From Escherichia coli (GTDB lineage: Bacteria; Pseudomonadota; Gammaproteobacteria; Enterobacterales; Enterobacteriaceae), in the NCBI RefSeq assembly GCF_003018235.1, contig NZ_CP027437.1: 64,000 nucleotides of DNA. One strand, given 5' to 3'. A model generated the notes under the pieces. That model was given only the letters and a program-made list of their open reading frames with translations. It searched no databases and was not told where the DNA came from. A program made the translations under genes and the position numbers. Positions within the stretch are counted from its first letter, which is position 1; every line of letters begins with the position of its first letter. Below, in pieces: positions 22,764 to 57,726 of the stretch.

Positions 22764-23906
<1,143 letters not shown>

Positions 23907-44628: not shown

Positions 44629-47220
44629 ATGCATCAATCTGGTTCTGTTTCTCTTTGTCGTTCCGCAATATCTGTTCTGGTGGCTACAGCGTTATATTCA
44701 CCCATAGCATTGGCATCAACAGTTGAGTATGGTGAGACAGTTGATGGTGTTGTCCTGGAAAAAGATATCCAGCTGGTTTATGGGACCGCCAATAATACGA
44801 AAATCAATCCTGGCGGAGAACAGCATATTAAAGAATTTGGTATAAGTAGTAATACTGAAATTAACGGCGGGTATCAGTACATTGAAATGAATGGCACCGC
44901 AGAATACTCAGTATTAAATGATGGTTATCAAATTGTTCAAATGGGTGGTGCGGCAAACCAGACTACCCTCAATAATGGTGTGCTACAGGTTTATGGCGCA
45001 GCGAATGATACTACCATTAAAGGCGGGCGCTTAATTATTGAAAAAGATGGGATTACCGTCTTTGCCGCTATCGAAAAGGGAGGATTACTGGAGGTTAAAG
45101 AGGGGGGGTTAGCATTTGCGGTAGATCAGAAAGCCGGCGGTGCTATTAAAACAACCACGCGGGCCATGGAGGTATTCGGAACAAACCGTCTCGGTCAGTT
45201 CGATATCAAGGATGGTATTGCTAATAATATGTTGTTGGAAAACGGCGGAAGTTTGCGAGTTGAAGAAAATGACTTCGCTTATAATACCACTGTGGATAAT
45301 GGCGGCTTACTGGAGGTTATGGATGGCGGGACTGCAACTGGCGTTGATAAAAAAGCAGGCGGAAAATTAATTGTCTCAACGAATGCGCTGGAAGTGAGTG
45401 GTACAAACAGTAAAGGCCAATTTAGTATAAAAGATGGTGTGTCCAAAAATTATGAACTGGATGATGGTTCCGGGCTCATTGTTATGGAGGACACGCAGGC
45501 CATTGACACTATCCTTGATGAGCATGCCACTATGCAATCGCTGGGAAAGGATACTGGTACGAGAGTGCAGGCAAATGCGGTATATGATCTCGGTCGATCA
45601 GATCAGAATGGAAGTATCACGTATTCCTCTAAAGCCATCTCTGAAAATATGGTTATCAACAATGGCCGCGCTAATGTCTGGGCTGGCACAATGGTTAACG
45701 TTTCAGTCAGAGGGAATGATGGCATTCTTGAGGTCATGAAGCCGCAAATAAATTATGCACCCGCTATGTTGGTGGGTAAGGTAGTGGTTTCTGAGGGCGC
45801 TTCTTTTAGAACGCATGGTGCCGTGGATACCAGCAAAGCGGATGTTTCGCTCGAAAATAGCGCATGGACCATCATTGCCGATATCACTACGACGAACCAA
45901 AACACTCGCCTCAACTTAGCCAACCTTGCGATGTCTGGCGCAAATGTGATTATGATGGCTGAGCCAGTGACTCGTTCATCTGTGACGGCAAGTGCGGAAA
46001 ATTTCACTACGTTGACCACCAATACCCTATCGGGAAACGGCAATTTTTATATGCGTACCGATATGGCTAATCATCAGAGCGATCAGCTCAACGTCACCGG
46101 TCAGGCAACAGGTGATTTCAAAATATTCGTTACGGACACCGGTGCCAGCCCGGCAGCAGGTGATAGCCTTACACTGGTAACAACGGGCGGCGGTGATGCT
46201 GCATTTACGTTGGGCAATGCCGGAGGCGTTGTTGATATCGGTACGTATGAATATACCTTGCTGGATAATGGCAACCATAGCTGGAGCCTCGCAGAGAATC
46301 GCGCGCAAATTACCCCTTCAACCACTGATGTGCTGAATATGGCGGCAGCACAACCGCTGGTATTTGATGCAGAACTGGACACCGTGCGTGAGCGTATTGG
46401 TAGCGTAAAAGGCGTTAATTACGATACGGCGATGTGGAGTTCGGCAATTAACACCCGCAACAACGTGACCACTGATGCGGGAGCTGGCTTTGAGCAAACA
46501 TTGACCGGGCTGACGCTCGGTATCGATAGCCGTTTCTCCCGTGAAGAAAGCAGCACAATTCGCGGCTTGTTCTTTGGTTACTCTCATTCTGATATTGGTT
46601 TTGATCGCGGCGGCAAAGGTAATATCGATAGCTATACCCTGGGGGCTTATGCTGGTTGGGAGCATCAGAACGGTGCCTATGTTGATGGGGTGGTGAAAGT
46701 TGACCGTTTTGCCAACACTATCCATGGCAAGATGAGTAATGGGGCAACAGCGTTTGGCGATTACAGTAGTAACGGCGCGGGTGCTCATGTCGAGAGCGGG
46801 TTCCGTTGGGTTGACGGATTGTGGAGTGTTAGACCCTATCTGGCCTTTACCGGCTTTACCACAGATGGTCAGGACTACACGTTATCAAACGGCATGCGCG
46901 CGGATGTGGGAAATACCCGCATATTACGCGCTGAAGCGGGAACAGCGGTAAGCTATCACATGGACCTGCAAAACGGTACGACGCTGGAACCCTGGCTGAA
47001 AGCCGCCGTACGTCAGGAATACGCCGATTCTAACCAGGTGAAAGTTAATGACGATGGCAAATTTAATAATGATGTGGCTGGAACCCGTGGCGTTTATCAG
47101 GCTGGGATAAGGTCATCGTTTACCCCGACGTTAAGCGGTCATTTGTCTGTCAGCTATGGCAATGGCGCAGGGGTAGAATCACCGTGGAATACTCAGGCGG
47201 GTGTGGTCTGGTCGTTCTGA
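44629..47220 (+). CDS. yejO: Intact autotransporter YejO (passenger domain plus C-terminal beta-barrel)
   Basis: 863 aa with a signal peptide, repetitive passenger domain and autotransporter beta-domain ending ...GVVWSF. It is not IS-disrupted as in K-12. Confidence 0.8.
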   Translation: MHQSGSVSLCRSAISVLVATALYSPIALASTVEYGETVDGVVLEKDIQLVYGTANNTKINPGGEQHIKEFGISSNTEINGGYQYIEMNGTAEYSVLNDGYQIVQMGGAANQTTLNNGVLQVYGAANDTTIKGGRLIIEKDGITVFAAIEKGGLLEVKEGGLAFAVDQKAGGAIKTTTRAMEVFGTNRLGQFDIKDGIANNMLLENGGSLRVEENDFAYNTTVDNGGLLEVMDGGTATGVDKKAGGKLIVSTNALEVSGTNSKGQFSIKDGVSKNYELDDGSGLIVMEDTQAIDTILDEHATMQSLGKDTGTRVQANAVYDLGRSDQNGSITYSSKAISENMVINNGRANVWAGTMVNVSVRGNDGILEVMKPQINYAPAMLVGKVVVSEGASFRTHGAVDTSKADVSLENSAWTIIADITTTNQNTRLNLANLAMSGANVIMMAEPVTRSSVTASAENFTTLTTNTLSGNGNFYMRTDMANHQSDQLNVTGQATGDFKIFVTDTGASPAAGDSLTLVTTGGGDAAFTLGNAGGVVDIGTYEYTLLDNGNHSWSLAENRAQITPSTTDVLNMAAAQPLVFDAELDTVRERIGSVKGVNYDTAMWSSAINTRNNVTTDAGAGFEQTLTGLTLGIDSRFSREESSTIRGLFFGYSHSDIGFDRGGKGNIDSYTLGAYAGWEHQNGAYVDGVVKVDRFANTIHGKMSNGATAFGDYSSNGAGAHVESGFRWVDGLWSVRPYLAFTGFTTDGQDYTLSNGMRADVGNTRILRAEAGTAVSYHMDLQNGTTLEPWLKAAVRQEYADSNQVKVNDDGKFNNDVAGTRGVYQAGIRSSFTPTLSGHLSVSYGNGAGVESPWNTQAGVVWSF

Positions 47221-47282
47221 TAACAGAAAATAAACAGGCCGTGATGTGTCGCGGTCTGTTTATCGAATTAAATGCAGATATA

Positions 47283-47314
47283 AAAAAACCAACCGCAAAG
47301 GTTGGTTTTTTTTG
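47283..47314 (+). terminator. Rho-independent terminator of yejO
   Basis: accaaccgcaaaggttggt hairpin followed by tttttttt. Confidence 0.8.
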
Positions 47315-47377
47315 GGATTTTTGCACGAGAGTAGTTTAATTGAGTATGTAACTACATGATTTAAAATAATTTGTCTA

Positions 47378-47410
47378 ATTCAACTTTTAAACCGTATAAC
47401 CAAACGTATA
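47378..47410. promoter_or_regulatory. Left-arm integrase binding repeats (cgtataaccaa / cgtataactaa)
   Basis: The same 11-mer family as the four copies between int and proL at 57450-57530. Confidence 0.55.
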
Positions 47411-47620
47411 ACTAAAATGATTTGCTGAAAAAGTGTACAATTTAAAGACAGATTTTCCCGGGGGTTATAAAACTGCGAAAATTTCGTAGTTATCCCGATA
47501 CGGGGATCACCATATCGGGATTGGATACCTGGCTTTTTTTCCGGTTAACTCTTAATCATCTGCGTGATCATAATGATGATTCAGCCAGCGCAATTTTGCG
47601 TTATCGGGAATATCAGCAAG

Positions 47621-47902
47621 TTACCGCCGTAACCGCTCCGGCTTCTTCCAGTGGTAGGTAATTTTTTCTTTCTCCCGATACATCTCCACGCGGCGCTTGT
47701 AGGCCAGCATTTCAAGAACGCGGATCCGTATGTCGCGCATATCCACATCATTAAGCTGGATACCATCACGGCGCATCACCTCAGCAACCACACACGCATA
47801 ATTTTCGGCGGTCACGCAGTCCGGCTGCGTAGCCTGTTCGTCAGCCTGCTGGCTGATTCCGGCAACTCGGCGGATTAATCGCAGTAGTTCGGCTTCTGTC
47901 AT
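47621..47902 (-). CDS. Hypothetical 93-aa island cargo protein
   Basis: ORF only; I recognise no domain. It is the leftmost gene of the island, downstream of the capsid gene. Confidence 0.4.
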   Translation of the reverse strand: MTEAELLRLIRRVAGISQQADEQATQPDCVTAENYACVVAEVMRRDGIQLNDVDMRDIRIRVLEMLAYKRRVEMYREKEKITYHWKKPERLRR

Positions 47903-48043
47903 TGTGCCCCCTCGCGCTGGTTAAGAAAACAAGCTCAGATTTTTTGTAAAGAATCTGTCACGCTAAAAGATGTCGAACAAAAAACAATCACCTTCATCAT
48001 CTTTTTTACATAAAAACAATTAAAAACAATAATTTACATACAT

Positions 48044-48141
48044 GATGATGATGGCGATAAAATCATAAAAATGCGCTTTTTTCCGCGCCGACCCGCCCCG
48101 TGGACAGGCCCACCCCACCAGGAGGACCCGCAAAAAAGGCG
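48044..48141. repeat. Copy 1 of a roughly 100-bp island-internal direct repeat (TGAT-N9-ATCA dyad ... ccgcgccgacccgccccgtgga...accaggaggaccc)
   Basis: About 80% identical to 50594..50690. Each copy sits just past the terminator of one minus-strand gene and upstream of the next. Confidence 0.7.
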
Positions 48142-48169
48142 GCATATTTGCCGCCCTGTAAACTGTGTA

Positions 48170-50065
48170 TCAGCCGGAAGCCGTACCGCTCGATTTGACC
48201 ATGCCGCGATAGTCCAGCGCGGCCACACCGGCATCAATACGAACCTTCCAGGCGACACCGTCAACGATGAAGCCTTCCTGCTGTTCAAGGTAAGGCTCGT
48301 CATTACCATCAAGATAAGCCACCTCGATTGTGTCCGTTCCCTGTGCTGAAAGCATGTACCATTGATTCACACTAACATCATCCAGACGAGGATCGACAAT
48401 AATATCCAGTAGCTTGTGATACGGGTTAAATATGCCGCTGTTTTTATCGGCCCCGAAAGGTGCGGTTGAATTAATCATTTGCAACGCGCGATCTTCCAGT
48501 GCTGCCGGAACTAACAGGAATTTAGGTGCAATGTTCAGCACCTCGCCGTTTTTATCTTTCTGTATGCGCATAGCGTGACGTGCTGCACTAAGCCCCGGCG
48601 TCGTCATGCCAAGATCGATAAGGTTGTTGTGTTTTTTATCAAACAAGGCCACACCATCAGACAGCTTGCCGTTTCCTGTAAGTACCAGATTAACCAGATT
48701 GCCAACCGTTCTGGCTGCTGCACGCCCCATAGCCATTGGCACGGTAGACAACTGATCAAGGTCATCATTGATTATCGCCTGGCGGGTAATACTGAAAATA
48801 TTCCCGTATGTAGCCAGCGCGATTGGCTCACCGCGATCGCTGGTGGTGATGTATTTATATTCTGCCCCTTCCGGCACTTTGTTTAATGTTGAAAAACCAT
48901 TCAGGCCAACGCGGCGGGCTTCACGGAAGTTTGACAGAGAACCTTTTTTAGTCCACTGGCGGAATGTTTCGCCGCTGTGCTCCCAGCCTGCCAGCACTGA
49001 TTTTTCAGCGCCACCAGCCAGGATGTAAGTAAAATCGCTGCTGCTGTGAGTGAATGCCGCATTAACAATCTGCGAACGCGTGCTGTAGCTGCCTGTGCTT
49101 ATGCCACGATGGGTTAATGATGCCTGTGCCATATCGAAAAGGCTCATCATGGCGTAAGGATTGCCGCGTTCGGCCTGTTCGTGACCAAGACGTGCGTTAA
49201 GCCCCTGACGCATGGCATCGCCGGTTATGTTGCCGTTATCCGTATACGCGTAGTAAAGATTTGCGGGGGTGTTTTTGTTGGTGGGTGTCGATTCCTTGCC
49301 CATAGCCAATAAAAGGCGTTCGCGCGCATCCTCAACGCTACAACCTGCGTCTGCCAGGCAGTTAATAGCCAGGTCGTTATATTTCCCGTTGAACGTGCCA
49401 AACAATTCGCGAATGCCGTTTAGTCGTTCCTGTTCGCCGCTGGCTTTGTTCTGGTTGATCATGTTTTTGATACTTTCCGGCATATTTGAAAAATCTCCGA
49501 TTCGTTTTGATTCAATTCTGGCCATTGCTGTAATCGCGGGTATAACCTCATCTGCGAAGCCGTTAGCCTTACACTCATTGCCATCCATCCAGGTTTCCGC
49601 CTCCATCATGGCGGTGATTTCCTGTTTGCTTTTTCCCGTTCTTCCGGCGTAGGTTTCCGCCATCGTGTCGCCCAGCTTGTCCATCAGGTCAGCAAAGCGG
49701 CGAACGTCGCCCGACACGCCAGAAGTAACACCACGGGGGGCATGTATCATCATCATTGCGTTAGCGGGCATCACGATGTGATCGCCACACATGGCAATAA
49801 ACGAGGCCATAGAAGCCGCTATGCCTTCAATGTGTACGATTTTTTTCGCCGGATGATTTTTCAGGGCGTTATAGATAGCCAGCCCCTGAAAGATGTCGCC
49901 GCCTGGTGAATGGATACGCAAATGGATTTCAGACACGTCACCACACGCGCTTATCTGGTCGGTTAATGTTGACGCCTGTACACCGTAACCGCCTATTTCG
50001 TCATAAATGCGAACGTGAAGGGCGTCGGCTTTTGCCTGTATGCTGTACCAGGATTTCATAGCCAT
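48170..50065 (-). CDS. Prohead protease (ClpP/S49-like) fused to an HK97-fold major capsid protein
   Basis: 631 aa. The N-terminal roughly 200 aa have the ClpP-type motif HSPGGDIF and a Ser/His context. The C-terminal roughly 400 aa resemble HK97-family major capsid proteins. A terminator hairpin ggcggcaaatatgccgcc+T6 follows the stop. Confidence 0.7.
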   Translation of the reverse strand: MAMKSWYSIQAKADALHVRIYDEIGGYGVQASTLTDQISACGDVSEIHLRIHSPGGDIFQGLAIYNALKNHPAKKIVHIEGIAASMASFIAMCGDHIVMPANAMMMIHAPRGVTSGVSGDVRRFADLMDKLGDTMAETYAGRTGKSKQEITAMMEAETWMDGNECKANGFADEVIPAITAMARIESKRIGDFSNMPESIKNMINQNKASGEQERLNGIRELFGTFNGKYNDLAINCLADAGCSVEDARERLLLAMGKESTPTNKNTPANLYYAYTDNGNITGDAMRQGLNARLGHEQAERGNPYAMMSLFDMAQASLTHRGISTGSYSTRSQIVNAAFTHSSSDFTYILAGGAEKSVLAGWEHSGETFRQWTKKGSLSNFREARRVGLNGFSTLNKVPEGAEYKYITTSDRGEPIALATYGNIFSITRQAIINDDLDQLSTVPMAMGRAAARTVGNLVNLVLTGNGKLSDGVALFDKKHNNLIDLGMTTPGLSAARHAMRIQKDKNGEVLNIAPKFLLVPAALEDRALQMINSTAPFGADKNSGIFNPYHKLLDIIVDPRLDDVSVNQWYMLSAQGTDTIEVAYLDGNDEPYLEQQEGFIVDGVAWKVRIDAGVAALDYRGMVKSSGTASG

Positions 50066-50250
50066 GCCCCTAACGTGTGCCCATACCAGTACTCTACCGC
50101 GCTGCGTGCAATTTGCCCTTTGGTCGGTACTGGCATTCCTGGGTGATTTTCCCTTATGAACTGCTGATAGCGTTCAATCTTCTCCATCGTTCCGGCGTCT
50201 ATGTGCACTGTTGCGCTTTTATCCGGTTTTCTGGTGTTGTTCTCTGGCAT
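50056..50250 (-). CDS. Hypothetical 64-aa protein translationally coupled to the capsid gene (MPENNTRKPD start)
   Basis: A strong GGAGG RBS lies 7 nt upstream of the ATG at 50250. It overlaps the capsid start by 10 nt. The six-frame ORF extends to 50283. Confidence 0.45.
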   Translation of the reverse strand: MPENNTRKPDKSATVHIDAGTMEKIERYQQFIRENHPGMPVPTKGQIARSAVEYWYGHTLGAWL

Positions 50251-50406
50251 AAATCCGCCTCCGTTTTGATTAACGGGCATCATTATTGATCGATAAAAGT
50301 AATAGATAAATCATTTTCTACCTAAAAATCAGATTATGATTTTTCTGATTATTTCGAGAAAAGCAAATCATTTGACGCATTATTGCTATTTTGGCAATAT
50401 TAAGTC

Positions 50407-50482
50407 TCATTCATTCCGGTAGTAGAAGTTCGTTTGTCGTACTAAAGCGCCTCCGGTAGCACCATCGGGGGCGCTTTTTTTG
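50407..50482 (+). ncRNA. Candidate small RNA, antisense to the leader of the capsid operon
   Basis: TTGACG-17 bp-CAATAT promoter-like element at 50372-50400. A GC-rich hairpin gcgcctccggtagcaccatcgggggcgc followed by ttttttt lies at 50447-50482. There is no ORF in this 425-bp gap. Confidence 0.35.
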
Positions 50483-50593
50483 TGCCTGTTTTTTTTGTAA
50501 ATATTTTCGGGAATGTTCCAGTGGTGAACAAAAAACAACCATAATCGACACTGAAATTTTTATCAGCCAAATATATCAATAAGTTATGTTAGT

Positions 50594-50690
50594 GGTGATG
50601 GTGCCATAAAAATCAAAAAATGCGCCTTTTTCCGCGCCGACCCGCCCCGTGGATGCCCCCACCAACCAGGAGGACCCACAAAAAAGCCGG
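50594..50690. repeat. Copy 2 of the roughly 100-bp direct repeat (TGAT-N12-ATCA dyad ... ccgcgccgacccgccccgtgga...accaggaggaccc)
   Basis: See copy 1. It is located after the perC-like terminator and 340 bp upstream of the capsid operon. Confidence 0.7.
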
Positions 50691-50708
50691 ATTGCTCCGG
50701 CTGTGTGC

Positions 50709-50984
50709 TCACTTCTGCGGGTAGTTGCGCCATACTGCTTTACCAATACCAGCTATCCCCATTTGTTTTTCAGTGCGATTAACTGACCTTTTCAGAGCGC
50801 CTAAATCATCCGGCGGCTCCGGTGGCCTCTGTGCCTTCCTGGAACATTCCTGCCGTCGCATTGCCACCTGTGCGCGTTCCTTGTCTGTCTCCACCAGCAT
50901 CATCACTTCACCCCATCGCGCCGCCGCCCTCCTGTAAAATCCTTTCGCCTCGAGTTCCTCCGCTATACGGTCATGTACCATCAT
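50709..50984 (-). CDS. PerC-family transcriptional activator-like protein
   Basis: 91 aa with the N-terminal motif VHDRIAEELEAKGFYRRAAARW, typical of PerC/Pch-like proteins. A terminator hairpin gccggagcaatccggc+T6 follows the stop. Confidence 0.55.
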   Translation of the reverse strand: MMVHDRIAEELEAKGFYRRAAARWGEVMMLVETDKERAQVAMRRQECSRKAQRPPEPPDDLGALKRSVNRTEKQMGIAGIGKAVWRNYPQK

Positions 50985-51994
50985 TCACCACCTCCCGCAG
51001 ATGGCGATAAGCTGGCTTTGCCTCCAAGTGGATTAAACCTTATCGCCTCTGTCAGAAAATCCGGCGCAAAATGCGCGTAAACCATTGTCTGTTGTATGCT
51101 CGCGTGCCCCAGTATCCTTTGCAGTGTGATTATATTCCCCCCGTTCATCATGAAATGTGTCGCGAATGTGTGCCGTAATACGTGGGTGGCCTGGCCTTTT
51201 GGTAAGTCCGGTTTTACTGACTTGATGACCTCCCTGAACTCCAGATAATCCACATCAAACAACTGTCCCTTTTTACCTCTCGTTACAAGTTCCAGAACGT
51301 CATCAGACACCGGAACAGCTCGCGCCCGTCCGTTCTTCGTCTCCGTAAACATTACCTTGTTACTGACTATATTTTCCCGTCGTAGCGTCGATGACTCCCC
51401 ATAACGCGCCCCCGTCGAAAGACACAAAACAGCCAGCGCGAGACAGTCGCCTTTGGCAATATTCAGTAAATGATTAACCTCATCATCACCAAGAAAACTC
51501 ATAGCCTTGTTTGGTGCTTTCAGCTTGCGTAATCCACTCAAAGGGTTTTCACCGTGATACATACCGCATTCGATTAGCCCCCTGAACATTCCTGATATAA
51601 CCGACAAATCACGGTTAACAGTCAACGGACTAAGGCCGCATCCCAGCTTGTCGGCTCTGTATTCCATGAGCATTGCGCGGGTTATGTTGCAGATTCGTGG
51701 ATCCCCCATTTCACGGATAACCTTCATCATGCGCATAAACGATTGTTCGCCGTATTCCTCCGATCTTCCGATAAACTCCATCCATAAGTTAGCCAGATCA
51801 GATAACAGGCGAATATCTGCGGCGCGTGACTCCCAGGGCTTATTATGACAATGAAGCAGTATGTATTTTTCGTAATCACGGGCTTTTGTCTGCGAGGGAA
51901 AAATCTTTCTTATCCGTCGCCCGTAAGCGCCATTTGGCCTTACGTCAACCAGCCAGCGACCATCCTCACACTTCCTTATCGCCATGCTCCACAC
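50981..51994 (-). CDS. Internal tyrosine recombinase (phage integrase family)
   Basis: 337 aa with a C-terminal catalytic region HVLRHTFAT...HASIQQTMVYAHF (H-x-x-R ... Y). Overlapping start and stop with flanking genes. Confidence 0.75.
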   Translation of the reverse strand: MWSMAIRKCEDGRWLVDVRPNGAYGRRIRKIFPSQTKARDYEKYILLHCHNKPWESRAADIRLLSDLANLWMEFIGRSEEYGEQSFMRMMKVIREMGDPRICNITRAMLMEYRADKLGCGLSPLTVNRDLSVISGMFRGLIECGMYHGENPLSGLRKLKAPNKAMSFLGDDEVNHLLNIAKGDCLALAVLCLSTGARYGESSTLRRENIVSNKVMFTETKNGRARAVPVSDDVLELVTRGKKGQLFDVDYLEFREVIKSVKPDLPKGQATHVLRHTFATHFMMNGGNIITLQRILGHASIQQTMVYAHFAPDFLTEAIRFNPLGGKASLSPSAGGGE

Positions 51995-52226
51995 CCTTAA
52001 CGTTGATGGTTGTTACCTGTTCCGCTTCGGCTATCTCCCGTTCGGTCAGCGTGGCAAAGTTTGCCGCCGCTGTGGTCATGAATGCGCTTATCAGTTCGGG
52101 ATGTGCTTTCGCGTATCCTTCTCCCGTGTTGCGGTCTATCGTTCTGATTGCCACCTTTAAGGCGTGCTCTGTCATGTCTAATGCGCGATATTTTGGCGCT
52201 GCCTTATCTCTGGTTTTTCTGGTCAT
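51966..52226 (-). CDS. Hypothetical 86-aa protein
   Basis: ORF between the iterons and the internal recombinase; it overlaps the recombinase start. Confidence 0.4.
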   Translation of the reverse strand: MTRKTRDKAAPKYRALDMTEHALKVAIRTIDRNTGEGYAKAHPELISAFMTTAAANFATLTEREIAEAEQVTTINVKGVEHGDKEV

Positions 52227-52234
52227 TCCTCACC

Positions 52235-52430
52235 ACTCCTCACTTTTACTCCTCACTTTTTGTTATTCCTCGCCTGCTCCTCACCTGTTTTTTTTGCTTC
52301 TGTAATGCGTTGTTTTGCAATGTATTTTTTATTCCTCACTTTTTGACCTATATACAGGTGAGAAAGTGAGGAGTAGCGCTGATTTTTTGTTAAATTACTC
52401 GCTACCCTCACTTTTACTCCTCACTTTTTA
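52235..52430. repeat. Iteron array (CCTCACTTTTT, at least 6 direct copies and 1 inverted) - candidate origin of replication
   Basis: Copies at 52237, 52249, 52280 (variant), 52333, 52405, 52417 and an inverted gtgaggag at 52361. They lie immediately 3' of the rep gene, AT-rich, as in SaPI/PICI origins. Confidence 0.7.
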
Positions 52431-53828
52431 CAGTGGGTGCACATCATCGCCATCAATAGCGATTACGCCGTCACCTTCCAGCTTGTACAGCCAGCGCCGG
52501 AAATTTTTCATCTCATACCCCAGCTTTTTCATATCGTCGCGGAGAAGGGCGATAGTGCACGCCTCCCCGTGTGCTGTCCTCGTTCTGATGCACTGCCATA
52601 GCGCGGCGTGATTCTCCGTCTTGTTTCCGGCCTCCTCGATGCGCTCCAGTTCAACGGGTGGGCGCGGTTTATCCACAACCACCAGCGACGTGATTAACTC
52701 CCCGTCAGCGTCGGTAAAAAGCTCCACCACACGTAAATCGTATGCGGCCTCTTTCAGTTCCTCCGCGTCCTTCATTTTGGTGCAGGAGATAACCAGGGCT
52801 TCACAGTCCGCACCTTCACGGCGAATACGGTATTCAGCGTCCAGAGATGCACGAAATGCACTGGAACCACGCGCCCCTTTCGTCTCATCCTTGCCGGAAT
52901 GGTGAACCACCAGCACCGTGGCCCCTGTGCGTCGTTTCAGTTCGTCACATCCACGGATAAACGCCCCCATGTCACGGGAATCATTTTCATCATTGCCGCC
53001 AAAGCAACGCGCCAGCGTATCCAGAATAATCATGCGTACAGGTTTACCCGTTTCCCGCTCCACCTGGCTGGCTGCGATAACCATTTCATCAACATCAAGC
53101 GGGGCCGCCGGAAAAATGGGACGGTTTACCAGATACAGATTTTTCACCTGCTCACCGTGCACAACCTCCCAGGCTTTTACACGACGTGGAACGCCGATAC
53201 CGCCTTCACCAACCACATAGAGAACCGCACCATGTGCAACCCTGCGGCCTCCCCAGTAGCGACCTGTGGAAACGTGACACGCCCACGATCCGGCAAGGAA
53301 TGATTTATAGGAACCGCTCGCCCCGTATATGCTGCATAGCGATACCGCCGGAATAATTCCCTTAACCACGTAATCAAGTTGCGTGTCGTATCCGGCAGAA
53401 CCAATGCTCATCGGTAGTTTGGTTTTCCGCTGGTGGCTTTTTTCTTCCTCCTGCGCTTTACCGCGCTCCCGTTCCAGATATTCGCGCCAGTTCTCCCGCT
53501 TCTGGCTGTGCATCCCATCTGGGTAATAATTCGCATCCCGTACACCTGCTGCCGCCAGCTTTTGCGCTATGGCATTAATGCTCGATGGCTTGATATGGCC
53601 TGCCCTGTACAGACGGACGCAATAGCGGCCCTCGTCGATGATTCTCAGGTCTGGCAGTTCAGCCAGTTGATCATCAGCCAGCACAACGGGAGGCACATTA
53701 TCGCCAGCAAGTCGCCCGTCCTGCTCCTGCCACTGCTTCGCGTGTGCCCAGGCATCACTACCCGCAAAAATAATGACTTCTGTCATTTTGTCGTAAGGCT
53801 GTTTTCTTAAGTTCGGTGCGCTCTTCAT
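52428..53828 (-). CDS. Replication protein: RecA/DnaB-fold (RepA-like) AAA ATPase with an N-terminal extension
   Basis: 466 aa with Walker A GASGSYKS and Walker B MIILDTLAR, consistent with the RepA/primase-associated helicase-loader family of satellite elements. Confidence 0.7.
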   Translation of the reverse strand: MKSAPNLRKQPYDKMTEVIIFAGSDAWAHAKQWQEQDGRLAGDNVPPVVLADDQLAELPDLRIIDEGRYCVRLYRAGHIKPSSINAIAQKLAAAGVRDANYYPDGMHSQKRENWREYLERERGKAQEEEKSHQRKTKLPMSIGSAGYDTQLDYVVKGIIPAVSLCSIYGASGSYKSFLAGSWACHVSTGRYWGGRRVAHGAVLYVVGEGGIGVPRRVKAWEVVHGEQVKNLYLVNRPIFPAAPLDVDEMVIAASQVERETGKPVRMIILDTLARCFGGNDENDSRDMGAFIRGCDELKRRTGATVLVVHHSGKDETKGARGSSAFRASLDAEYRIRREGADCEALVISCTKMKDAEELKEAAYDLRVVELFTDADGELITSLVVVDKPRPPVELERIEEAGNKTENHAALWQCIRTRTAHGEACTIALLRDDMKKLGYEMKNFRRWLYKLEGDGVIAIDGDDVHPL

Positions 53829-54121
53829 TTGCCTTTTCTCCCTCTGGCTATCTGGTTGCGTAACTCCGCTATGTGCTGTGCTATCGTTCCTGAATCATCA
53901 CAGCAATATTTCTTTTCCTTCAGAGGCGTAAAATCCTTCTCAAATTGCAACCGGAACATCACATTCTCAAATAAATATCCAGAACGTATAAAAGTAATAA
54001 ATGTGCTGTTAACTCTCGTCACTGTCACATAATTACCGTCACCATCCAGATAAATATCACCTTTAATAATTTCAGGGCGAGGAAGGCCGCTGGCAGTTGC
54101 GCCAGTATTTTTCTTTTTCAT
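53825..54121 (-). CDS. Hypothetical 98-aa protein
   Basis: ORF overlapping the rep start by 4 nt (coupled). No recognisable domain. Confidence 0.45.
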   Translation of the reverse strand: MKKKNTGATASGLPRPEIIKGDIYLDGDGNYVTVTRVNSTFITFIRSGYLFENVMFRLQFEKDFTPLKEKKYCCDDSGTIAQHIAELRNQIARGRKGK

Positions 54122-54137
54122 GGTATTTACCTTTCTG

Positions 54138-54419
54138 TTATTCGTCGTTCTGAATAAAACGTTGTTCTCTTATTTCAGAAAGTATCCTGTAAACATTCTT
54201 ATCACTTACCACTTGATGATAATCATCATCCTCAATAAAACACATCAGCGCCTTATTACGGATATATATTTCTCTGGAAAGAAACTGTATCGCCGCGACT
54301 GCCCTTTCTTCTGTAATTCCGTTCATTGACTCACGTTCAATAATAATATTAAGTGCGGCGGATGCGTCTTCCAGTTCAATAAGGTAAGCAGCGAGGTTAT
54401 TTTTTATTCCATTAGACAT
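54138..54419 (-). CDS. Hypothetical 93-aa acidic protein
   Basis: ORF in the operon upstream of rep. Confidence 0.45.
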   Translation of the reverse strand: MSNGIKNNLAAYLIELEDASAALNIIIERESMNGITEERAVAAIQFLSREIYIRNKALMCFIEDDDYHQVVSDKNVYRILSEIREQRFIQNDE

Positions 54420-54615
54420 GGCTCACCCCCTGACAGATTTTTGCAGCGAATACAGCAACACAACCGGACGGGCAAAGGTTACGCGCTTCGCGTTCCGTCC
54501 AGGCGGTTACGTGGATGATTTGATGGTCTGACGCGCCAAAGGCAATAAAGCGCCAGGTGAATTTATTCAGGTTGTGCGAGTCCCGCCCTTGCGGGTGTGT
54601 GATATGATTTAACAT
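54412..54615 (-). CDS. Hypothetical 67-aa protein (MLNHITHPQGRD...); the real gene inside the 353-aa six-frame ORF
   Basis: ATG at 54615 with a GAGGT RBS 6 nt upstream. The rest of the 54412..55473 ORF runs antisense through a promoter region and other genes and is implausible. Confidence 0.5.
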   Translation of the reverse strand: MLNHITHPQGRDSHNLNKFTWRFIAFGASDHQIIHVTAWTEREARNLCPSGCVAVFAAKICQGVSHV

Positions 54616-54712
54616 AGCTACCTCGATACTATTGCTATCGTTGGTGGTTAGAAGCCTGTGGGTGTTAGCGGCACCTACGGGCTTCGCAGTTTCTGAACCT
54701 TGAACACTCAAG

Positions 54713-54794
54713 GTGTAAGACACAACATAAAACAACAGTGTCTTACACGTCAACCCTTTAAAATAGTTTTTTTTCGTGTATATTGTCTTACACC
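54713..54794. promoter_or_regulatory. Divergent promoter/operator region with three GTGTCTTACAC sites (one inverted)
   Basis: gtgtaagacac at 54713, gtgtcttacac at 54739 and tgtcttacacc at 54784. They lie between the minus-strand 67-aa gene and the plus-strand 61-aa gene. Confidence 0.6.
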
Positions 54795-54814
54795 AAAAAC
54801 ATGAGGGGTTAGAC

Positions 54815-55000
54815 ATGGCAACAGGTCCAAAGAATGCAAAATCACAATCTGTAACTGCACGTATTGCCCATGAAATTATTGAAGGCATGGAAAACGTGAA
54901 AGAAGATGGCGAAAGTACAGGGCAGTTTATAAGCGCAGCCATGCGTGGCGAGATCAAACGCCGCCAACGGAAAAAAACCAAAGAATCAGATAAGGAATAA
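54815..55000 (+). CDS. Small 61-aa basic protein (MATGPKNAKSQS...), candidate repressor/regulator of the switch region
   Basis: ATG at 54815 preceded by a GAGGGG RBS. The six-frame ORF begins at an upstream GTG at 54776, inside operator site 3. Confidence 0.45.
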   Translation: MATGPKNAKSQSVTARIAHEIIEGMENVKEDGESTGQFISAAMRGEIKRRQRKKTKESDKE

Positions 55001-55003
55001 CTT

Positions 55004-55147
55004 ATGCAGCAAGTACTATACTGGCTTGGCTCTTTGTTTTTATTTGCTTTCCTCCTGGGAAATTGCATCAGCAATGAACACGTCAGTAATGAGCGTGTAT
55101 GCAGGAGTGATGAAAAAAAGATTCCACGCCTCATATACAATGATTGA
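55004..55147 (+). CDS. Candidate 47-aa hydrophobic peptide (MQQVLYWLGSLFLFAFLLGNC...)
   Basis: ATG 4 nt after the upstream stop, with an AAGGAA RBS. It has a single predicted TM helix. It is below the 60-aa ORF cut-off, and a competing 68-aa ORF lies in another frame at 54945..55151. Confidence 0.25.
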   Translation: MQQVLYWLGSLFLFAFLLGNCISNEHVSNERVCRSDEKKIPRLIYND

Positions 55148-55477
55148 TTAGCTCGTGCAGCACTAAAGCAACGCAAGGCCAAAGAGCAGGAATAGCCCAC
55201 CAGCAAGCCAGCGCACTGATCACATTGCCCACCAGCCGCAAATGTGGCATTGTTGGCTATGCTCATGCGTTGGGGATAACGTGTAGCTTGTGTCGAGGGG
55301 CCACCGTAGCGGGTGGCCTTTGTTTTGCCTGTTATCCGGCAATTGTGGCGCTTCGCCACACGGTTGATATAATTCCCCTGCACTGATCCATTTTTTTCGC
55401 AGCAGGTTAATTGTTCGCAAGGGCGCTCCGGCAACGGGGCGCTTTTTGTTATGTTCATCGCGTTACGCCTCACACCA

Positions 55478-55684
55478 TTACGCAGCCGTTCCGCGCGCTT
55501 CTTCCTCGCGCTCTTTCAGCCAGGCCAGCACTTCATCTTCATACCAGCCAACACGACGCAGACCGATTTTGAAGCCTTTCGGGAATTTTCCGGCGTTGAT
55601 CATGTCCTGTAGCGAACTGTCCGCCTTGATGCGAAGAATATTTTTTACTTCCTGACGGGTGAGTATTTTTCTGATTACTTCCAT
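55478..55684 (-). CDS. alpA: AlpA-family phage/island transcriptional regulator (MerR-like HTH)
   Basis: 68 aa; ...LRIKADSSLQDMINAGKFPKGFKIGLRRVGWYEDEVLAWL... matches the AlpA/Xis-like HTH pattern. Confidence 0.7.
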   Translation of the reverse strand: MEVIRKILTRQEVKNILRIKADSSLQDMINAGKFPKGFKIGLRRVGWYEDEVLAWLKEREEEARGTAA

Positions 55685-55724
55685 CGTGTTTTACCTCATT
55701 AATCCGGCGTGTTCCGGTGATAAA

Positions 55725-55790
55725 TACGGTAAAACAGGGAAGGGCGGGAAAAACAGTACCTACCGTTTTAAAACGGTACCCACTGTTTTT
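55725..55790. promoter_or_regulatory. alpA upstream operator: 40-bp near-perfect palindrome centred on TACCGTTTTAAAACGGTA, plus an extra ACGGTAAAAC half-site
   Basis: aaacagtacc-taccgttttaaaacggta-cccactgtttt at 55750-55790; an additional half-site lies at 55727-55737. Confidence 0.6.
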
Positions 55791-55821
55791 TATCTCGTTG
55801 ATTGTGCTTCTTTTTGCAAAA

Positions 55822-55850
55822 AATAGCGACCGCAAGGGGCCGCTATTGTG
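55822..55850 (-). terminator. Rho-independent terminator between the 77-aa gene and alpA
   Basis: Minus strand reads atagcggccccttgcggtcgctat followed by tttttgc. Confidence 0.5.
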
Positions 55851-55851
55851 A

Positions 55852-56085
55852 TTACCGTCTCCACTTCTTAGGTCGCCCACCGCATTTAAGGCTGGTGGGC
55901 CTCAGCACCTTGTCGATGCTTTCAGCCAGATTTTTCGATACGCCACGTGAGCGCAAAAAACTGACTACCTCGTGTTTTGTGGGGGCTGTTGATTTGTCTT
56001 CCGGATCGTACGTTGACCAGAATTCACGGCTTACCAGTACAGCCAGTTCAAGCCCGTCACAAGTGCCATTGATGTTTGTTTGCAT
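55852..56085 (-). CDS. Hypothetical 77-aa protein (possible excision/regulatory factor)
   Basis: ORF directly downstream of int, with a basic C-terminus CGGRPKKWRR. Confidence 0.45.
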   Translation of the reverse strand: MQTNINGTCDGLELAVLVSREFWSTYDPEDKSTAPTKHEVVSFLRSRGVSKNLAESIDKVLRPTSLKCGGRPKKWRR

Positions 56086-56189
56086 GTTGATGCTCTCTTC
56101 ATGTTTGGCGGCCTTTGGGGGTAACGAGATAATGCAACTATACGACGGTTTTACATGGTTTTCATCGTTTTTGCTGGTTTTGTGTACAG

Positions 56190-57449
56190 TTATACCGCAC
56201 GGATACCCCTTTTACCACCAGCAAGGGTAACGCCCGTTGCCGCTGCCTCAACAAATTCCCCCCACCAGCGCATCAGCACAATGCGTTTTTCCAGGTAGTT
56301 ACTGCGGTTGTAGGCTCTCCTTACTTCGTTGGTGTCCACGTGGGCCAGTGCGGCCTCGATTACGTCCGGCTCGAATCCTTCCTCGTTTGCTGCTGTGCTG
56401 AATATGGCGCGTAATCCATGAGACACCAGCACGCCAGCGAACCCCATGCGCCGTAATGCTGCGTTGGCGGTCTGGCTGTTCATCGGCTGGCGTGGGTCTT
56501 TCAGGCTCGGGAAAACATGCTCGCGGTGGTGGCTGATTGGTTTCATGGCCTCCAGCACTGCCATAGCCTGACCGCAAAGCGGGATAACGTGATCACGTCG
56601 CATCTTCATACGTCCGGCTGGTATCGTCCATTGTTGCTCGTCCAGGTCGATTTCTTCCCAGCGTGCTGACGATGCCTCAACAGGACGGGTTACGGTAAGT
56701 AGCTGCCACTCAATCAGTAGTCTTGTCTGCCGTTCTGTTGCCGATACGGATAAAGCCCGCATAAGCTCCGGTAGCTGCTCGGGGCGGATTGTTGGCATAT
56801 GTTTTTTTACTGGGGTGGGGAAGGCCTTGCGCACGTTTGTAGCCGGATTGGTATCAATCATCCCGCTGTTGGCGGCGTAATCCATAACTTCATTGATGCG
56901 CTGTAAAACCCGCTTGAGCGTTTCCAGGTTGCCGCGTTCCTTGATGGGGGTGAGTATCTCCACGAACCTGCGGGCGGTGAGGGTGTCTACTGGCGTGTCA
57001 CCGATGAACGGGAATACATATTTCTCCAGCGATCTCCATATGTCTTTAATTGTGTTGGGTGCAAGATTCTGGCTGATTTTCACCTGGTACCATGCCGCTG
57101 CTACATTTTCGAACGTGTTGCCCTGTCTCCGTTCCTCTGCTTCGCGTTTTCGTCGCTCGTGTTCCTGTGGGTCGGTGCCGGAAGAAATTAACGTCCTGTA
57201 CTCGCTACGGCGTTTTCTGGCATCAGCCAAGGAAACATCATCAAGCGATCCAAAACTCAGCAATATTCTTTTTTTGTCCAATGGGCGGTAGTAGGAAAAT
57301 CGCCAGAGTTTTGATCCAGACGGTTTGACCAGGAGAAAAAGCCCTCCGCCGTCCTGTAGGGTGTACTCCTTTTCCGCTGGTCTGGCTGCTTTGATCTGCA
57401 CTGTGGTTAATGGGGTTGTTTTTCTCGCCATATGTCTATGATTCCACAC
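56190..57449 (-). CDS. int: P4-type tyrosine integrase (N-terminal DUF4102 arm-binding domain)
   Basis: 419 aa. The N-terminus LTTVQIKAARPAEKEYTLQDGGGLFLLVKPSGSKLWRFSY is characteristic of P4/CP4-57-type integrases. C-terminal HGLR...Y catalytic residues. Adjacent to the tRNA. Confidence 0.85.
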   Translation of the reverse strand: MWNHRHMARKTTPLTTVQIKAARPAEKEYTLQDGGGLFLLVKPSGSKLWRFSYYRPLDKKRILLSFGSLDDVSLADARKRRSEYRTLISSGTDPQEHERRKREAEERRQGNTFENVAAAWYQVKISQNLAPNTIKDIWRSLEKYVFPFIGDTPVDTLTARRFVEILTPIKERGNLETLKRVLQRINEVMDYAANSGMIDTNPATNVRKAFPTPVKKHMPTIRPEQLPELMRALSVSATERQTRLLIEWQLLTVTRPVEASSARWEEIDLDEQQWTIPAGRMKMRRDHVIPLCGQAMAVLEAMKPISHHREHVFPSLKDPRQPMNSQTANAALRRMGFAGVLVSHGLRAIFSTAANEEGFEPDVIEAALAHVDTNEVRRAYNRSNYLEKRIVLMRWWGEFVEAAATGVTLAGGKRGIRAV

Positions 57450-57530: not shown

Positions 57531-57649
57531 TAGCTTATAAATCCGGTGATGTCCGGTGACTAAAAACCATAAAAAAACCCGCCAATCAAGTGATTAGCGG
57601 GCTTTTCGTGTCTGAAACTGTTATTTCCGGTGGTATCCGGTGGGCGATT

Positions 57650-57726
57650 TGGTCGGCACGAGAGGATTTGAACCTCCGACCCCCGACACCCCATGACGGT
57701 GCGCTACCAGGCTGCGCTACGTGCCG
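57650..57726 (-). tRNA. proL: tRNA-Pro (GGG)
   Basis: Plus strand is the exact reverse complement of CGGCACGUAGCGCAGCCUGGUAGCGCACCGUCAUGGGGUGUCGGGGGUCGGAGGUUCAAAUCCUCUCGUGCCGACCA. Confidence 0.95.

What the first reader, a model, noticed from the sequence alone, without database searches (positions are those of the whole stretch)
50709..52226. Second intact tyrosine recombinase plus PerC-like activator embedded in the middle of the island
Besides the att-adjacent P4-type integrase, a 337-aa recombinase with intact R...HxxR...Y residues sits internally. It is translationally coupled to an 86-aa ORF upstream and to a PerC-family regulator downstream. Two explanations are possible. One is a tandem or composite origin from two elements integrated at proL. 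The other is that the internal enzyme has a non-integrative role, such as multimer resolution or inversion. The PerC-like gene next to it could activate host virulence or island late genes.
Basis: partly seen in the sequence, partly recalled or inferred. Interest (0 to 1): 0.55.

Follow-up and report, generated by a model that had tools for sequence, protein, structure and literature searches.

The report
Extra P2-type integrase inside a PICI
The island at tRNA-Pro is an ordinary E. coli phage satellite (a PICI) that carries, as a rare single-gene insert with no DNA target site of its own, an intact second integrase of the phage-P2 family. This insert is not a sign of two fused elements, and what the enzyme does has not been tested.

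Summary
Three overlapping minus-strand genes are present: orf86, a 334/337-aa tyrosine recombinase, and perC.

The island (about 47323-57664) is a single EcCICFT073-type Gram-negative PICI at proL. It has one att pair, a P4-type Int with AlpA, a RepA helicase, ori iterons, two lambdoid cos sites and a ClpP/capsid fusion gene.

orf86 and perC are backbone genes, found in 1389 of 5426 complete E. coli genomes. The recombinase ("Int2") is a 1,014-bp insert made of the ORF alone. It sits in a slot that is otherwise empty or holds ssb.

Int2 belongs to the P2 integrase family and keeps all six catalytic residues. It is under strong purifying selection (dN/dS 0.075). With Salmonella satellite Int2s it forms a satellite-borne clade (99% bootstrap). 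No att site travels with it.

The tandem or composite origin is refuted. The most likely role is a trans-acting recombinase that works on P2-family phage att sites. In Klebsiella spallanzanii, a P4-like satellite carries an equally att-less Int2 that is 94% identical to the co-resident P2-like prophage's Int.

Secondary internal integrases in PICIs were already noted by Mageeney et al. (2023), so novelty is modest. The function remains open.

The parts
47323..47331 (.). Left att core: a 9-bp copy of the proL 3' end (GCACGAGAG). This is the left boundary of the PICI.
   Evidence: Read directly. An 18-nt proL 3' pattern has no other match within 3 mismatches.
47392..47417 (.). Arm-type direct repeat (CGTATAAC x2) for the primary P4-type integrase. 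Its partners lie at 57466-57519.
   Evidence: D7 (96% identical copies 10,102 bp apart); sequence. Binding by the integrase is inferred.
47621..47902 (-). 93-aa backbone ORF (phrog_1561), function unknown.
   Evidence: Present in related PICIs.
47930..48142 (-). cos-like copy A (cosQ/cosN-like), downstream of the capsid gene.
   Evidence: Repeat D1/D5/D15. It matches the region upstream of terS in lambdoid phage mEp460. Two cos sites are published for EcCICFT073 (PMC6739421).
48170..50065 (-). ClpP-like prohead protease / HK97-type major capsid fusion gene.
   Evidence: Pfam CLP_protease plus Phage_capsid_4. 51% identity to mEp460, VT1-Sakai and cdtI lambdoid phages.
50056..50283 (-). 75-aa backbone ORF (phrog_4934), function unknown.
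50480..50690 (-). cos-like copy B, immediately downstream of perC.
50685..50702 (-). Intrinsic-terminator-like hairpin plus T-run that ends the orf86-int2-perC unit.
   Evidence: This is a consensus match only.
50709..50984 (-). perC: PerC-family regulator, a backbone gene of the PICI family.
   Evidence: Pfam PF06069, E=6.5e-39. Present in Int2-less PICIs.
50981..51994 (-). int2: accessory P2-family tyrosine integrase. The probable start is the ATG at 51985 (334 aa). It is a single-ORF cassette.
   Evidence: family; cassette boundaries 50983-51996; dN/dS 0.075; catalytic residues; satellite clade, 99% bootstrap.
51966..52226 (-). orf86 (phrog_1231): a backbone gene. Its last codons are supplied by whatever occupies the slot.
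   Evidence: The AlphaFold2 single-sequence model has low confidence (pLDDT 60).
52227..52430 (.). Replication origin: GTGAGGAGTAAAAGTGAGG iterons and a 23-nt palindrome, directly after the replicase gene.
   Evidence: D2, I1, I7; sequence. The position matches the published PICI ori location (PMC10111431). Origin function is inferred.
52428..53828 (-). RepA-family replicative helicase (AAA_25).
53825..54121 (-). DUF4222 protein. Conserved just upstream of the replicase gene in the PICI loci examined, and also in the Salmonella satellite L025, which has a DUF927 primase and no capsid gene.
55478..55684 (-). AlpA-family HTH regulator/excisionase.
   Evidence: ORF. Pfam Phage_AlpA is recorded on the orthologue in L002.
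56190..57449 (-). Primary P4-type integrase, adjacent to att.
   Evidence: Pfam Arm-DNA-bind_3, Phage_int_M and Phage_integrase.
57650..57726 (-). tRNA-Pro (GGG), proL. Its 3' end is the attachment site and the right boundary.

Best explanation
What it is (shown). Positions 50709-52226 are the distal end of the replication operon of one EcCICFT073-type Gram-negative PICI at proL.

orf86 and perC are backbone genes of that family. Between them lies a 1,014-bp cassette that consists of nothing but the ORF of a full-length P2-family integrase (Int2). The enzyme has an arm-binding N-domain, a core-binding domain, a catalytic domain and an intact RKHRHY set. The cassette occupies a slot that holds ssb or nothing in more than a thousand related PICIs.

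The P4-type Int, AlpA, and the single att pair with its arm repeats account for the integration module at proL; that they carry out integration and excision is inferred, not shown. Int2 brings no att DNA with it.

How it most likely works (inferred). Int2 is probably co-transcribed with the replicase and made when the PICI cycle is switched on. It then acts in trans as a site-specific recombinase on att-type sites carried by another replicon, most plausibly those of P2-family (Peduoviridae) phages and prophages.

The effect would be either to supply integrase activity, which P2-type prophages are poor at making after derepression, or to interfere with these very common competitors.

The identity of the element and the 'not a composite' conclusion are near certain. 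I put the trans-acting mechanism at about 0.35-0.4, and the confidence value given refers to that mechanism.
For: Single PICI:
- One att pair and one set of arm repeats.
- Gene order int-alpA-...-DUF4222-RepA-ori-...-cos-capsid-cos, matching published GN-PICIs.

Cassette is the ORF alone:
- Window 50983-51996 replaces 16 nt in the Int2-less proL island L016 and a 427-nt ssb in L017. The flanking junctions are shared.

Functional enzyme:
- Six of six catalytic residues are invariant.
- dN/dS is 0.075 at dS 0.85 against the 88%-identical allele in L010, the lowest value among the island's genes.
- Int2 is 65% identical to the Salmonella orthologue in the same slot, compared with 40-54% for neighbouring genes.

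No cis site found:
- No inverted-repeat core lies inside the ORF.
- No non-coding k-mer is conserved only in Int2+ satellites.
- The Salmonella copy is followed only by terminator-like hairpins.

Target appears independent of the backbone:
- The allele in L018 is about 45% identical over the N-terminal 262 aa, yet shares 97-100% nt identity from about 51200 through perC and 85-93% in ori/orf86.
- Related Int2 genes sit next to the replicase/ori module (directly downstream of it in all but L098/L104) in at least five unrelated satellite backbones with four replicase types.

Direct analogy:
- In K. spallanzanii SB6411, a P4-like satellite carries an Int2 that is 94% identical to the Int of the co-resident P2-like prophage.
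- The homology covers only the ORF (9987-10964), again without att DNA.

Precedents in the literature:
- Secondary PICI integrases close to helper integrases (PMC10111431).
- A PICI-encoded helper-like excisionase that aids helper excision (PMC11773190).
Against: - The packaging helper implied by the cos sites and capsid gene is a lambdoid siphovirus, not a P2-like phage. The mEp460 integrase is unrelated to Int2.
- No prophage integrase closer than about 62% identity was seen among 5.8 billion proteins (contexts). A cognate P2-like phage with matching att specificity is therefore not identified.
- No Cox/RDF gene accompanies Int2, so only integrative-type reactions could occur without a phage partner.
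- Int2 always sits next to the replication module, which could equally point to a replication-linked cis role.
- A short core site of about 30 bp hidden in the backbone would escape my comparisons.
- The gene is rare: 1 of 1389 PICI-bearing complete E. coli genomes.
Confidence: 0.38

Rival explanations
1. Cis-acting, replication-linked recombinase. Int2 would resolve or generate multimers of the replicating PICI circle, or monomerise the concatemer after injection, at a short site in the PICI backbone. This would resemble Cre/lox or ResD/rfsF.
For: - Int2 lies directly after the replicase and ori, in the slot otherwise used by ssb.
- Most satellite backbones examined show the same position just downstream of the replicase/ori module; in the Rahnella loci L098/L104 Int2 lies upstream of the primase.
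- EcCICFT073-type PICIs are packaged as multimers in phage-sized heads (PMC10111431; PMC6739421).
- The gene appears to be co-transcribed with the replication genes, with a terminator only after perC.
Against: - The cassette is the ORF alone and has moved between unrelated backbones with different iterons and flanks.
- No core-type inverted repeat is in the ORF.
- No Int2-specific conserved non-coding element was found.
- Int2-less relatives are collinear.
- The enzyme keeps a phage-type arm-binding domain, which simple resolution recombinases lack.
- The Klebsiella satellite copy is 94% identical to a genuine prophage integrase.
Confidence: 0.2
2. Module-exchange recombinase. Int2 would promote gain or swapping of accessory genes at the satellite's variable region, in an integron-like way, or capture of phage genes.
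For: - In P4-like satellites Int2 is followed by toxin-antitoxin and other accessory genes: HicAB, Gp49/HI1420, hok.
- The slot itself is variable: empty, ssb or int2.
- Mageeney et al. suggest integrases may take part in gene capture.
Against: - No repeated recombination sites flank the slot or its neighbours.
- The junctions look like ordinary homologous exchange within conserved coding flanks.
- In this PICI, Int2 is followed by backbone genes, not cargo.
Confidence: 0.08
3. A second integration module that gives the PICI an alternative chromosomal attachment site.
For: - Int2 is a complete heterobivalent phage-type integrase.
- Dual integrases would widen the choice of sites.
Against: - No attP-like DNA accompanies the gene.
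- All 23 contigs read for the exact protein, and the 88% variant, sit at proL next to the primary integrase.
- Other Int2-bearing satellites sit at the sites of their own primary integrases.
Confidence: 0.07
4. A functionless passenger: a recent accidental capture of a prophage int gene.
For: - It is rare in complete genomes.
- Mageeney et al. describe such genes as occasional captures.
Against: - dN/dS is 0.075 over dS 0.85.
- The catalytic residues are intact across deep divergence.
- There is a satellite-borne clade spanning E. coli and Salmonella with 99% bootstrap.
- No close prophage donor exists; the nearest is about 62% identical.
Confidence: 0.05
5. Tandem or composite island: two elements integrated one after the other at proL.
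For: Two integrase genes lie within 10 kb.
Against: - There is a single att pair and no internal proL repeat.
- There is only one replication module (the two cos copies are a known feature of a single EcCICFT073-type PICI), and all genes form one co-oriented PICI.
- The Int2-less island at the same site differs only by the ORF.
Confidence: 0.02

Closest known systems
EcCICFT073-type Gram-negative PICIs (Fillol-Salom et al. 2018, PMC6092414; 2019, PMC6739421)
   Same: - Size of about 10 kb.
- Terminal P4-type int followed by alpA.
- Co-oriented genes, with the replicase followed by ori iterons.
- A PerC homologue.
- Two cos sites resembling those of lambdoid helpers.
- A capsid gene but no tail or lysis genes.
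   Different: - This one uses a RepA/AAA_25 helicase and a ClpP-capsid fusion.
- No Rpp homologue could be recognised.
- It carries the extra int2 gene.
Secondary internal integrases ('Int2') of GN-PICIs and helper-embedded PICIs (Mageeney et al. 2023, PMC10111431)
   Same: - An internal tyrosine integrase in addition to the terminal one.
- It falls outside the PICI/P4 integrase clade and among phage integrases.
   Different: - That paper treats them as occasional captures from helper prophages in the 'Late zone'.
- Here the gene is P2-family although the helper signature is lambdoid.
- It sits at the replication/packaging boundary in a fixed slot.
- It is strongly constrained and belongs to a satellite-borne clade with no close prophage donor.
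Bacteriophage P2 integrase and the C-Int-attP module of P2-like prophages (PDB 5c6k)
   Same: - Same three-domain architecture, similar length (334 aa from the ATG, 337 from the GTG, vs 337) and the same catalytic residues.
- 46% identity to P2 Int and 57-62% to P88-like or 186-like prophage integrases.
   Different: - The canonical gene follows the C repressor at the prophage end next to attP, with Cox nearby. This holds for 72 of 79 species-representative loci.
- Here there is no C, no Cox and no attP.
P4-like satellites carrying an internal P2-family integrase (seen here in Salmonella, Klebsiella and Rahnella)
   Same: - An att-less, ORF-only int2.
- It sits immediately next to the satellite replicase/ori.
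   Different: - Those satellites have Ogr/Delta and P2-type capsid genes, so P2-like phages are their helpers.
- In K. spallanzanii the Int2 is 94% identical to the resident helper-type prophage Int.
- No such partner is known for the E. coli PICI.
EcCIMP1 AlpA_1, a PICI-encoded helper-like excisionase (PMC11773190)
   Same: - A satellite carries a component of another phage's site-specific recombination system.
- It acts in trans on the prophage.
   Different: - There it is an excisionase related to the actual helper, and it was tested experimentally.
- Here it is an integrase, it is untested, and it is not related to the presumed helper.
Cre/loxP, XerCD/dif and ResD/rfsF multimer-resolution systems
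   Same: A tyrosine recombinase encoded next to a replication module.
   Different: - Those enzymes lack an arm-binding domain and have an adjacent simple core site.
- Neither holds here.

Membership tests
Gram-negative PICI (EcCICFT073 type) | Terminal tyrosine integrase plus AlpA at one end, next to a specific att site | tested here: met
   P4-type int at 56190-57449, alpA at 55478-55684, and the proL att core at both ends.
Gram-negative PICI (EcCICFT073 type) | Replicase gene followed by an iteron-type origin | tested here: met
   RepA/AAA_25 at 52428-53828, with iterons at 52227-52430. Origin activity was not tested.
Gram-negative PICI (EcCICFT073 type) | Small size, co-oriented genes, no lysis or tail genes, helper-type cos site(s) | tested here: met
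   10.3 kb. The annotated genes are co-oriented on the minus strand, apart from two small plus-strand ORFs in the regulatory zone of SCU-111. Two cos-like copies match the mEp460 cos region.
Gram-negative PICI (EcCICFT073 type) | Rpp protein that redirects helper TerS | tested here: inconclusive
   The small ORFs at 47621-47902 and 50056-50283 have no PDB or Pfam match.
Gram-negative PICI (EcCICFT073 type) | Helper-induced excision, replication and packaging | not testable with these tools
   This needs induction experiments.
P2-family (Int_N) phage integrase | Int_N plus Phage_integrase domains and an N-terminal arm-binding segment homologous to P2 Int | tested here: met
   PF24624 at 8e-25 and PF00589 at 3e-19. 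5c6k at E=1e-85. The alignment runs from residue 1.
P2-family (Int_N) phage integrase | Catalytic R-K-H-R-H-Y residues | tested here: met
   R194, K217, H268, R271, H294 and Y303 are invariant.
P2-family (Int_N) phage integrase | Encoded beside its attP and the C repressor/Cox switch, at the end of the element it integrates | tested here: not met
   The cassette is the ORF alone, between orf86 and perC. No C or Cox is present. The canonical arrangement is seen.
P2-family (Int_N) phage integrase | Catalyses attP x attB recombination | not testable with these tools
   No substrate is known.
PerC/Pch family regulator | PerC domain across the whole protein | tested here: met
   PF06069, 132 bits, residues 2-90.
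PerC/Pch family regulator | Activates LEE1/ler or other targets | not testable with these tools
   The literature is mixed: some PICI PerC homologues activate, some do nothing, and one represses.
Tandem/composite integrative elements | Three att copies (attL, an internal hybrid att, attR) and two sets of element core genes | tested here: not met
   There are only two copies of the proL core and only one replication module and one regulatory set; the two cos copies are a known feature of a single PICI of this type.
Multimer-resolution tyrosine recombinases (Cre/Xer/ResD type) | Adjacent simple core site (inverted repeats around a 6-8 bp spacer) and no arm-binding domain | tested here: not met
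   No such site lies in or beside the cassette. The arm-binding domain is present.
Known anti-phage defence proteins (PADLOC) | Match to a defence-system profile | tested here: not met
   No hit for Int2, orf86, PerC or the small ORFs.

The most novel reading that the evidence does not exclude
Phage satellites of several kinds keep an att-less copy of a P2-family integrase as a tool aimed at P2-like prophages. This would apply both to lambdoid-dependent PICIs and to P4-like elements.

The satellite would supply in trans the Int that a derepressed P2-type prophage cannot make, since P2 int is transcribed with the repressor gene. That would drive excision of the prophage. Alternatively, it would trap or mis-recombine incoming P2-like genomes.

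In the E. coli PICI this would be recombinase-based interference with, or exploitation of, a phage that is not its packaging helper.
Probability: 0.2. Interest if true: 0.7.

Novelty: new member of a known kind. Interest (0 to 1): 0.4.

Why it matters
PICIs and P4-like satellites are very common in enterobacteria, and they shape both phage sensitivity and virulence-gene regulation. A conserved, catalytically intact integrase with no attachment site of its own implies a DNA substrate on another replicon.

If that substrate is a P2-like prophage, this would be a new kind of cross-talk between mobile elements, in which a satellite controls the integration state of a phage. It would also explain why 'secondary integrases' recur in satellites.

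For annotation, it is a warning that two integrases in one island do not imply two elements.

Tried and rejected
- Internal att search. No third copy of the proL 3' end was found. The repeats near 52230 and 50600 proved to be ori iterons and a cos site.
- Search for a cis recombination site. There are no core-type inverted repeats in the ORF. No non-coding 13-mer is conserved between E. coli and Salmonella Int2+ satellites and absent from Int2-less ones. The regions upstream and downstream of Int2 in P4-like satellites share only replicase-specific iterons.
- Helper-type origin for this PICI. This was rejected because the mEp460 integrase is unrelated to Int2.
- Correlation of the Int2 allele with the primary att site. 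This was rejected because the two tRNA-Met(CAT)-site PICIs carry alleles only 48% identical.
- Defence-system profiles: none matched.
- Rfam: only the tRNA reached threshold, and there was no C4/isrK-type immunity RNA.
- Plasmid homologues: few and uninformative.
- orf86 structure. The single-sequence AlphaFold2 model has pLDDT 60, so no fold search was run. There are no PDB sequence matches for the three small ORFs.
- An epsilon-like 'Derepression' domain is present in Salmonella satellite L025 but not detectable in the window's PICI.
- The divergent L018-type allele is absent from the 5426 complete E. coli genomes.
- The right-hand att of the leuX satellite L023 was not found within 3 mismatches.
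Full report
**1. The observation**

- perC covers the whole Pfam PerC model (E=6.5e-39).
- The recombinase has Int_N (PF24624) and Phage_integrase domains.
- orf86 has no Pfam match and belongs to phrog_1231, of unknown function.
- The int2 stop and the perC start overlap in ATGA. orf86 reads 20 nt past the ATG at 51985, which NCBI uses as the start of a 334-aa product.
- The best solved-structure match is bacteriophage P2 integrase (5c6k, E=1e-85).
- In an alignment with P2 Int and seven relatives, R194, K217, H268, R271, H294 and Y303 are invariant.
- The att-adjacent integrase (56190-57449) is P4-type and shows no significant similarity to the internal one.

**2. What the island is**

The window is E. 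coli chromosome. On the left are ccm-narP-yejO and on the right proL-yejM. Strain SCU-111 is 99.7% identical across the finding, and assembly GCA_025137755.1 is 99.99% identical over 47000-57900.

The island runs from a 9-bp copy of the proL 3' end (47323-47331) to proL itself (core at 57656-57664). Doubled CGTATAAC arm-type repeats lie near both ends. No third proL-like core exists.

Gene order, all in one direction, is:

- P4-type int
- alpA (55478-55684)
- a variable regulatory zone with an Icd-like gene
- DUF4222
- RepA/AAA_25 helicase
- a 200-bp block of GTGAGG iterons and a palindrome (52227-52430)
- orf86, int2 and perC
- a terminator-like hairpin (50685-50702)
- a cos-like element
- a 75-aa ORF
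- a ClpP-protease/major-capsid fusion gene
- a second cos-like element
- a 93-aa ORF

The two elements of about 165-210 nt (47930-48142 and 50480-50690) are 84-85% identical to each other. Both match the sequence just upstream of terS in the lambdoid phage mEp460, including a lambda-like cosQ/cosN core. The capsid fusion is 51% identical to that of mEp460, VT1-Sakai and cdtI phages.

This matches the published anatomy of EcCICFT073-type Gram-negative PICIs. That anatomy includes the two cos sites, the ori downstream of the replicase, and a PerC homologue (PMC6092414, PMC6739421, PMC10111431).

**3. The recombinase is a single-ORF cassette in a defined slot**

DNA flanking the recombinase (orf86 and perC) is found in 1389 of 5426 complete E. 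coli genomes, but the recombinase itself in only one.

- Strain 95-3322 carries an island at the same proL site that is collinear with the window, except that window 50983-51996 replaces 16 nt.
- In strain TUM9803 the same slot holds a 427-nt ssb gene, with the same junctions.
- A spread sample of hits shows the slot either empty or holding ssb.

So orf86 and perC are backbone genes, and the recombinase (Int2 from here on) is an accessory gene. The inserted DNA is the ORF and nothing else.

The exact protein occurs on at least 45 contigs. All 23 that were read have it in this slot at proL. An allele 88% identical sits in the same slot at proL.

These facts refute a tandem or composite origin.

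**4. It is maintained, and it is old**

Between the window and the 88% allele, Int2 has dN/dS 0.075 at dS 0.85. This is the lowest ratio among the six island genes compared.

A Salmonella satellite with the same backbone logic carries an Int2 that is 65% identical. Its order is DUF4222, RepA, an 87-aa ORF overlapping by 20 nt, Int2, then a ClpP/capsid fusion. It lacks perC and uses a different primary integrase at a tRNA site. Its neighbouring genes are only 40-54% identical to the window's.

With the N-terminal 258 residues, the E. coli and Salmonella satellite Int2s form a clade with 99% bootstrap support. The clade is nested among P2-like prophage integrases.

The nearest homologues found in a genuine prophage context are only 57-62% identical. 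That context is Cox, C repressor and Int at the prophage end.

In 79 loci from species-representative genomes, 72 show the canonical C-Int arrangement.

**5. Alleles are swapped and the gene recurs in other satellites**

A third E. coli PICI (L018) has a different primary integrase and a lambda E/D/Nu1-type late module, yet keeps Int2 in the same orf86-Int2-perC slot.

- Its first 262 residues are about 45% identical to every other allele.
- From about window position 51200 through perC the DNA is 97-100% identical to the window. This is higher than in the flanking ori/orf86 region, which is 85-93%.
- The DNA-recognition part of the enzyme has therefore been exchanged on an otherwise similar local backbone.

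P2-family Int2 genes also sit next to the replicase and iterons in P4-like satellites that carry Ogr/Delta and P2-type capsid genes. These are found in Salmonella (L014/L015, L023 at leuX, L024), in a DUF927-primase satellite (L025), and in Klebsiella and Rahnella.

Across these backbones there are four replicase types and unrelated flanks.

The clearest case is Klebsiella spallanzanii SB6411. The satellite Int2 is 94% identical to the Int of a P2-like prophage in the same genome. The DNA homology (90%) covers only positions 9987-10964, again the ORF alone without att DNA.

**6. How it most likely works**

Shown:
- The enzyme is full length and constrained.
- It is not needed to explain the island's ends.
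- It carries no att DNA.
- Its recognition domains vary independently of the local backbone.
- The same design occurs in satellites whose helpers are P2-like, once with near identity to the resident helper's integrase.

Inferred:
- Int2 is probably co-transcribed with the replicase operon. No promoter-like site was found upstream of orf86 on the minus strand, and a terminator follows perC.
- It acts in trans on att-type sites located elsewhere, most plausibly those of P2-family phages.

From established P2 biology (my own knowledge, not tested here), P2 int is transcribed with the repressor gene from Pc, and Cox shuts Pc off. Derepressed P2 prophages are therefore short of Int and excise poorly. 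A satellite-supplied Int would remove that block.

For the E. coli PICI the link is weaker. Its cos sites and capsid gene point to a lambdoid packaging helper. The integrase of the representative lambdoid phage checked, mEp460, is unrelated to Int2. No close prophage partner is known. Interference with P2-like phages is as likely as assistance.

I give the trans-acting reading about 0.35-0.4.

The main rival is a cis-acting multimer-processing role, at about 0.2. It is favoured by the constant position next to the replication module and the exchange with ssb. It is disfavoured by the absence of any co-inherited site and by the phage-type arm-binding domain.

**7. PerC**

perC is a backbone gene of the family and is independent of Int2.

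Lambdoid phages such as mEp460 also encode a PerC-domain protein next to their replication gene.

The literature reports PICI PerC homologues that activate LEE1, others that have no effect, and one that represses it. Its target here cannot be inferred.

**8. Comparison with what is known, and novelty**

The island is a member of a known kind, the GN-PICIs.

Secondary internal integrases in GN-PICIs were reported by Mageeney et al. 2023. They described them as lying outside the PICI integrase clade and, in two cases, as close to the helper's integrase. No function was tested. My full-text searches turned up no other paper that uses the term 'secondary integrase' for satellites.

What this analysis adds:
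- The P2-family identity of Int2.
- The ORF-only cassette in a fixed ssb/empty slot.
- The strength of purifying selection.
- The satellite-borne clade.
- The allele swapping.
- The recurrence next to ori in P4-like satellites.
- The 94% match to a co-resident prophage Int in Klebsiella.

This is a modest advance that poses a clear experimental question. It is not a new kind of system.

Noticed in passing
window 47930-48142 and 50480-50690: Two direct copies (84-85% identical) of a lambdoid cos-like element flank the 75-aa ORF and the capsid gene. Both match the region upstream of terS in phage mEp460. This is the cos1/cos2 pair described for EcCICFT073.
   Followed up: yes
L008 11296-11391 (assembly GCA_019379415.1), compared with window 48047-50690: The same Int2+ PICI has lost the 2.55 kb between the two cos copies, which held the 75-aa ORF and the ClpP/capsid gene. 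The junction lies inside the cos repeat, so the loss is a cos-to-cos deletion. The capsid gene is therefore dispensable for keeping the island.
   Followed up: partly
window 52227-52430: A dense set of GTGAGGAGTAAAAGTGAGG iterons and a 23-nt palindrome lies between the replicase stop and orf86. This is the presumed PICI origin. A weak Rfam 'mir-7578' hit here is an artefact of the repeats.
   Followed up: partly
window 47323-47331 vs 57656-57664: The left-end copy of the proL 3' end is only about 9 bp long. This agrees with the published remark that PICIs leave 'damaged' tRNA fragments at att sites.
   Followed up: partly
L076 9987-10964 and L073 9987-10964 (Klebsiella spallanzanii SB6411): A P4-like satellite carries an integrase 94% identical to that of a P2-like prophage in the same genome. 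The gene is inserted as the ORF alone between the primase gene and the satellite's iterons.
   Followed up: partly
L023 9626-9849, L014 9600-9900, L024 9605-9990: In P4-like satellites the replicase-specific iterons (GGTGATACA, GGTGTAACA, TATCTACCT) lie directly upstream of Int2. Toxin-antitoxin pairs (HicAB, Gp49/HI1420, PemK/MazE) follow it.
   Followed up: no
L098 and L104 (Rahnella), about 7190-13750: Here the P2-family integrase lies between the P4-type integrase and the alpha-like primase. This is a different position from all the other satellites seen.
   Followed up: no
window 50981-51994 vs L010 10001-11005: Int2 synonymous divergence (dS 0.85) is about twice that of the flanking orf86, perC and RepA genes (0.28-0.46). 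The int2 alleles therefore appear older than, or were exchanged independently of, the local backbone.
   Followed up: partly
L025 6631-6852: A Salmonella satellite whose Int2 belongs to the same clade as the window's also encodes a P4 epsilon-like 'Derepression' protein (PF25738, 29 bits). No such domain was detected in the window's PICI.
   Followed up: partly
L022 (phage mEp460) 35287-35775: A lambdoid phage encodes a PerC-family protein directly after its replication gene. This is the same relative position as perC in the PICI.
   Followed up: no
window 44629-47220: The yejO-like autotransporter next to the island is an intact 863-aa ORF here. It is annotated as a frameshifted, truncated pseudogene in SCU-111 and 95-3322.
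   Followed up: no
window 22001-23000: There is a sharp G+C dip (0.385 against about 0.52) far from the island. It was not examined.
   Followed up: no
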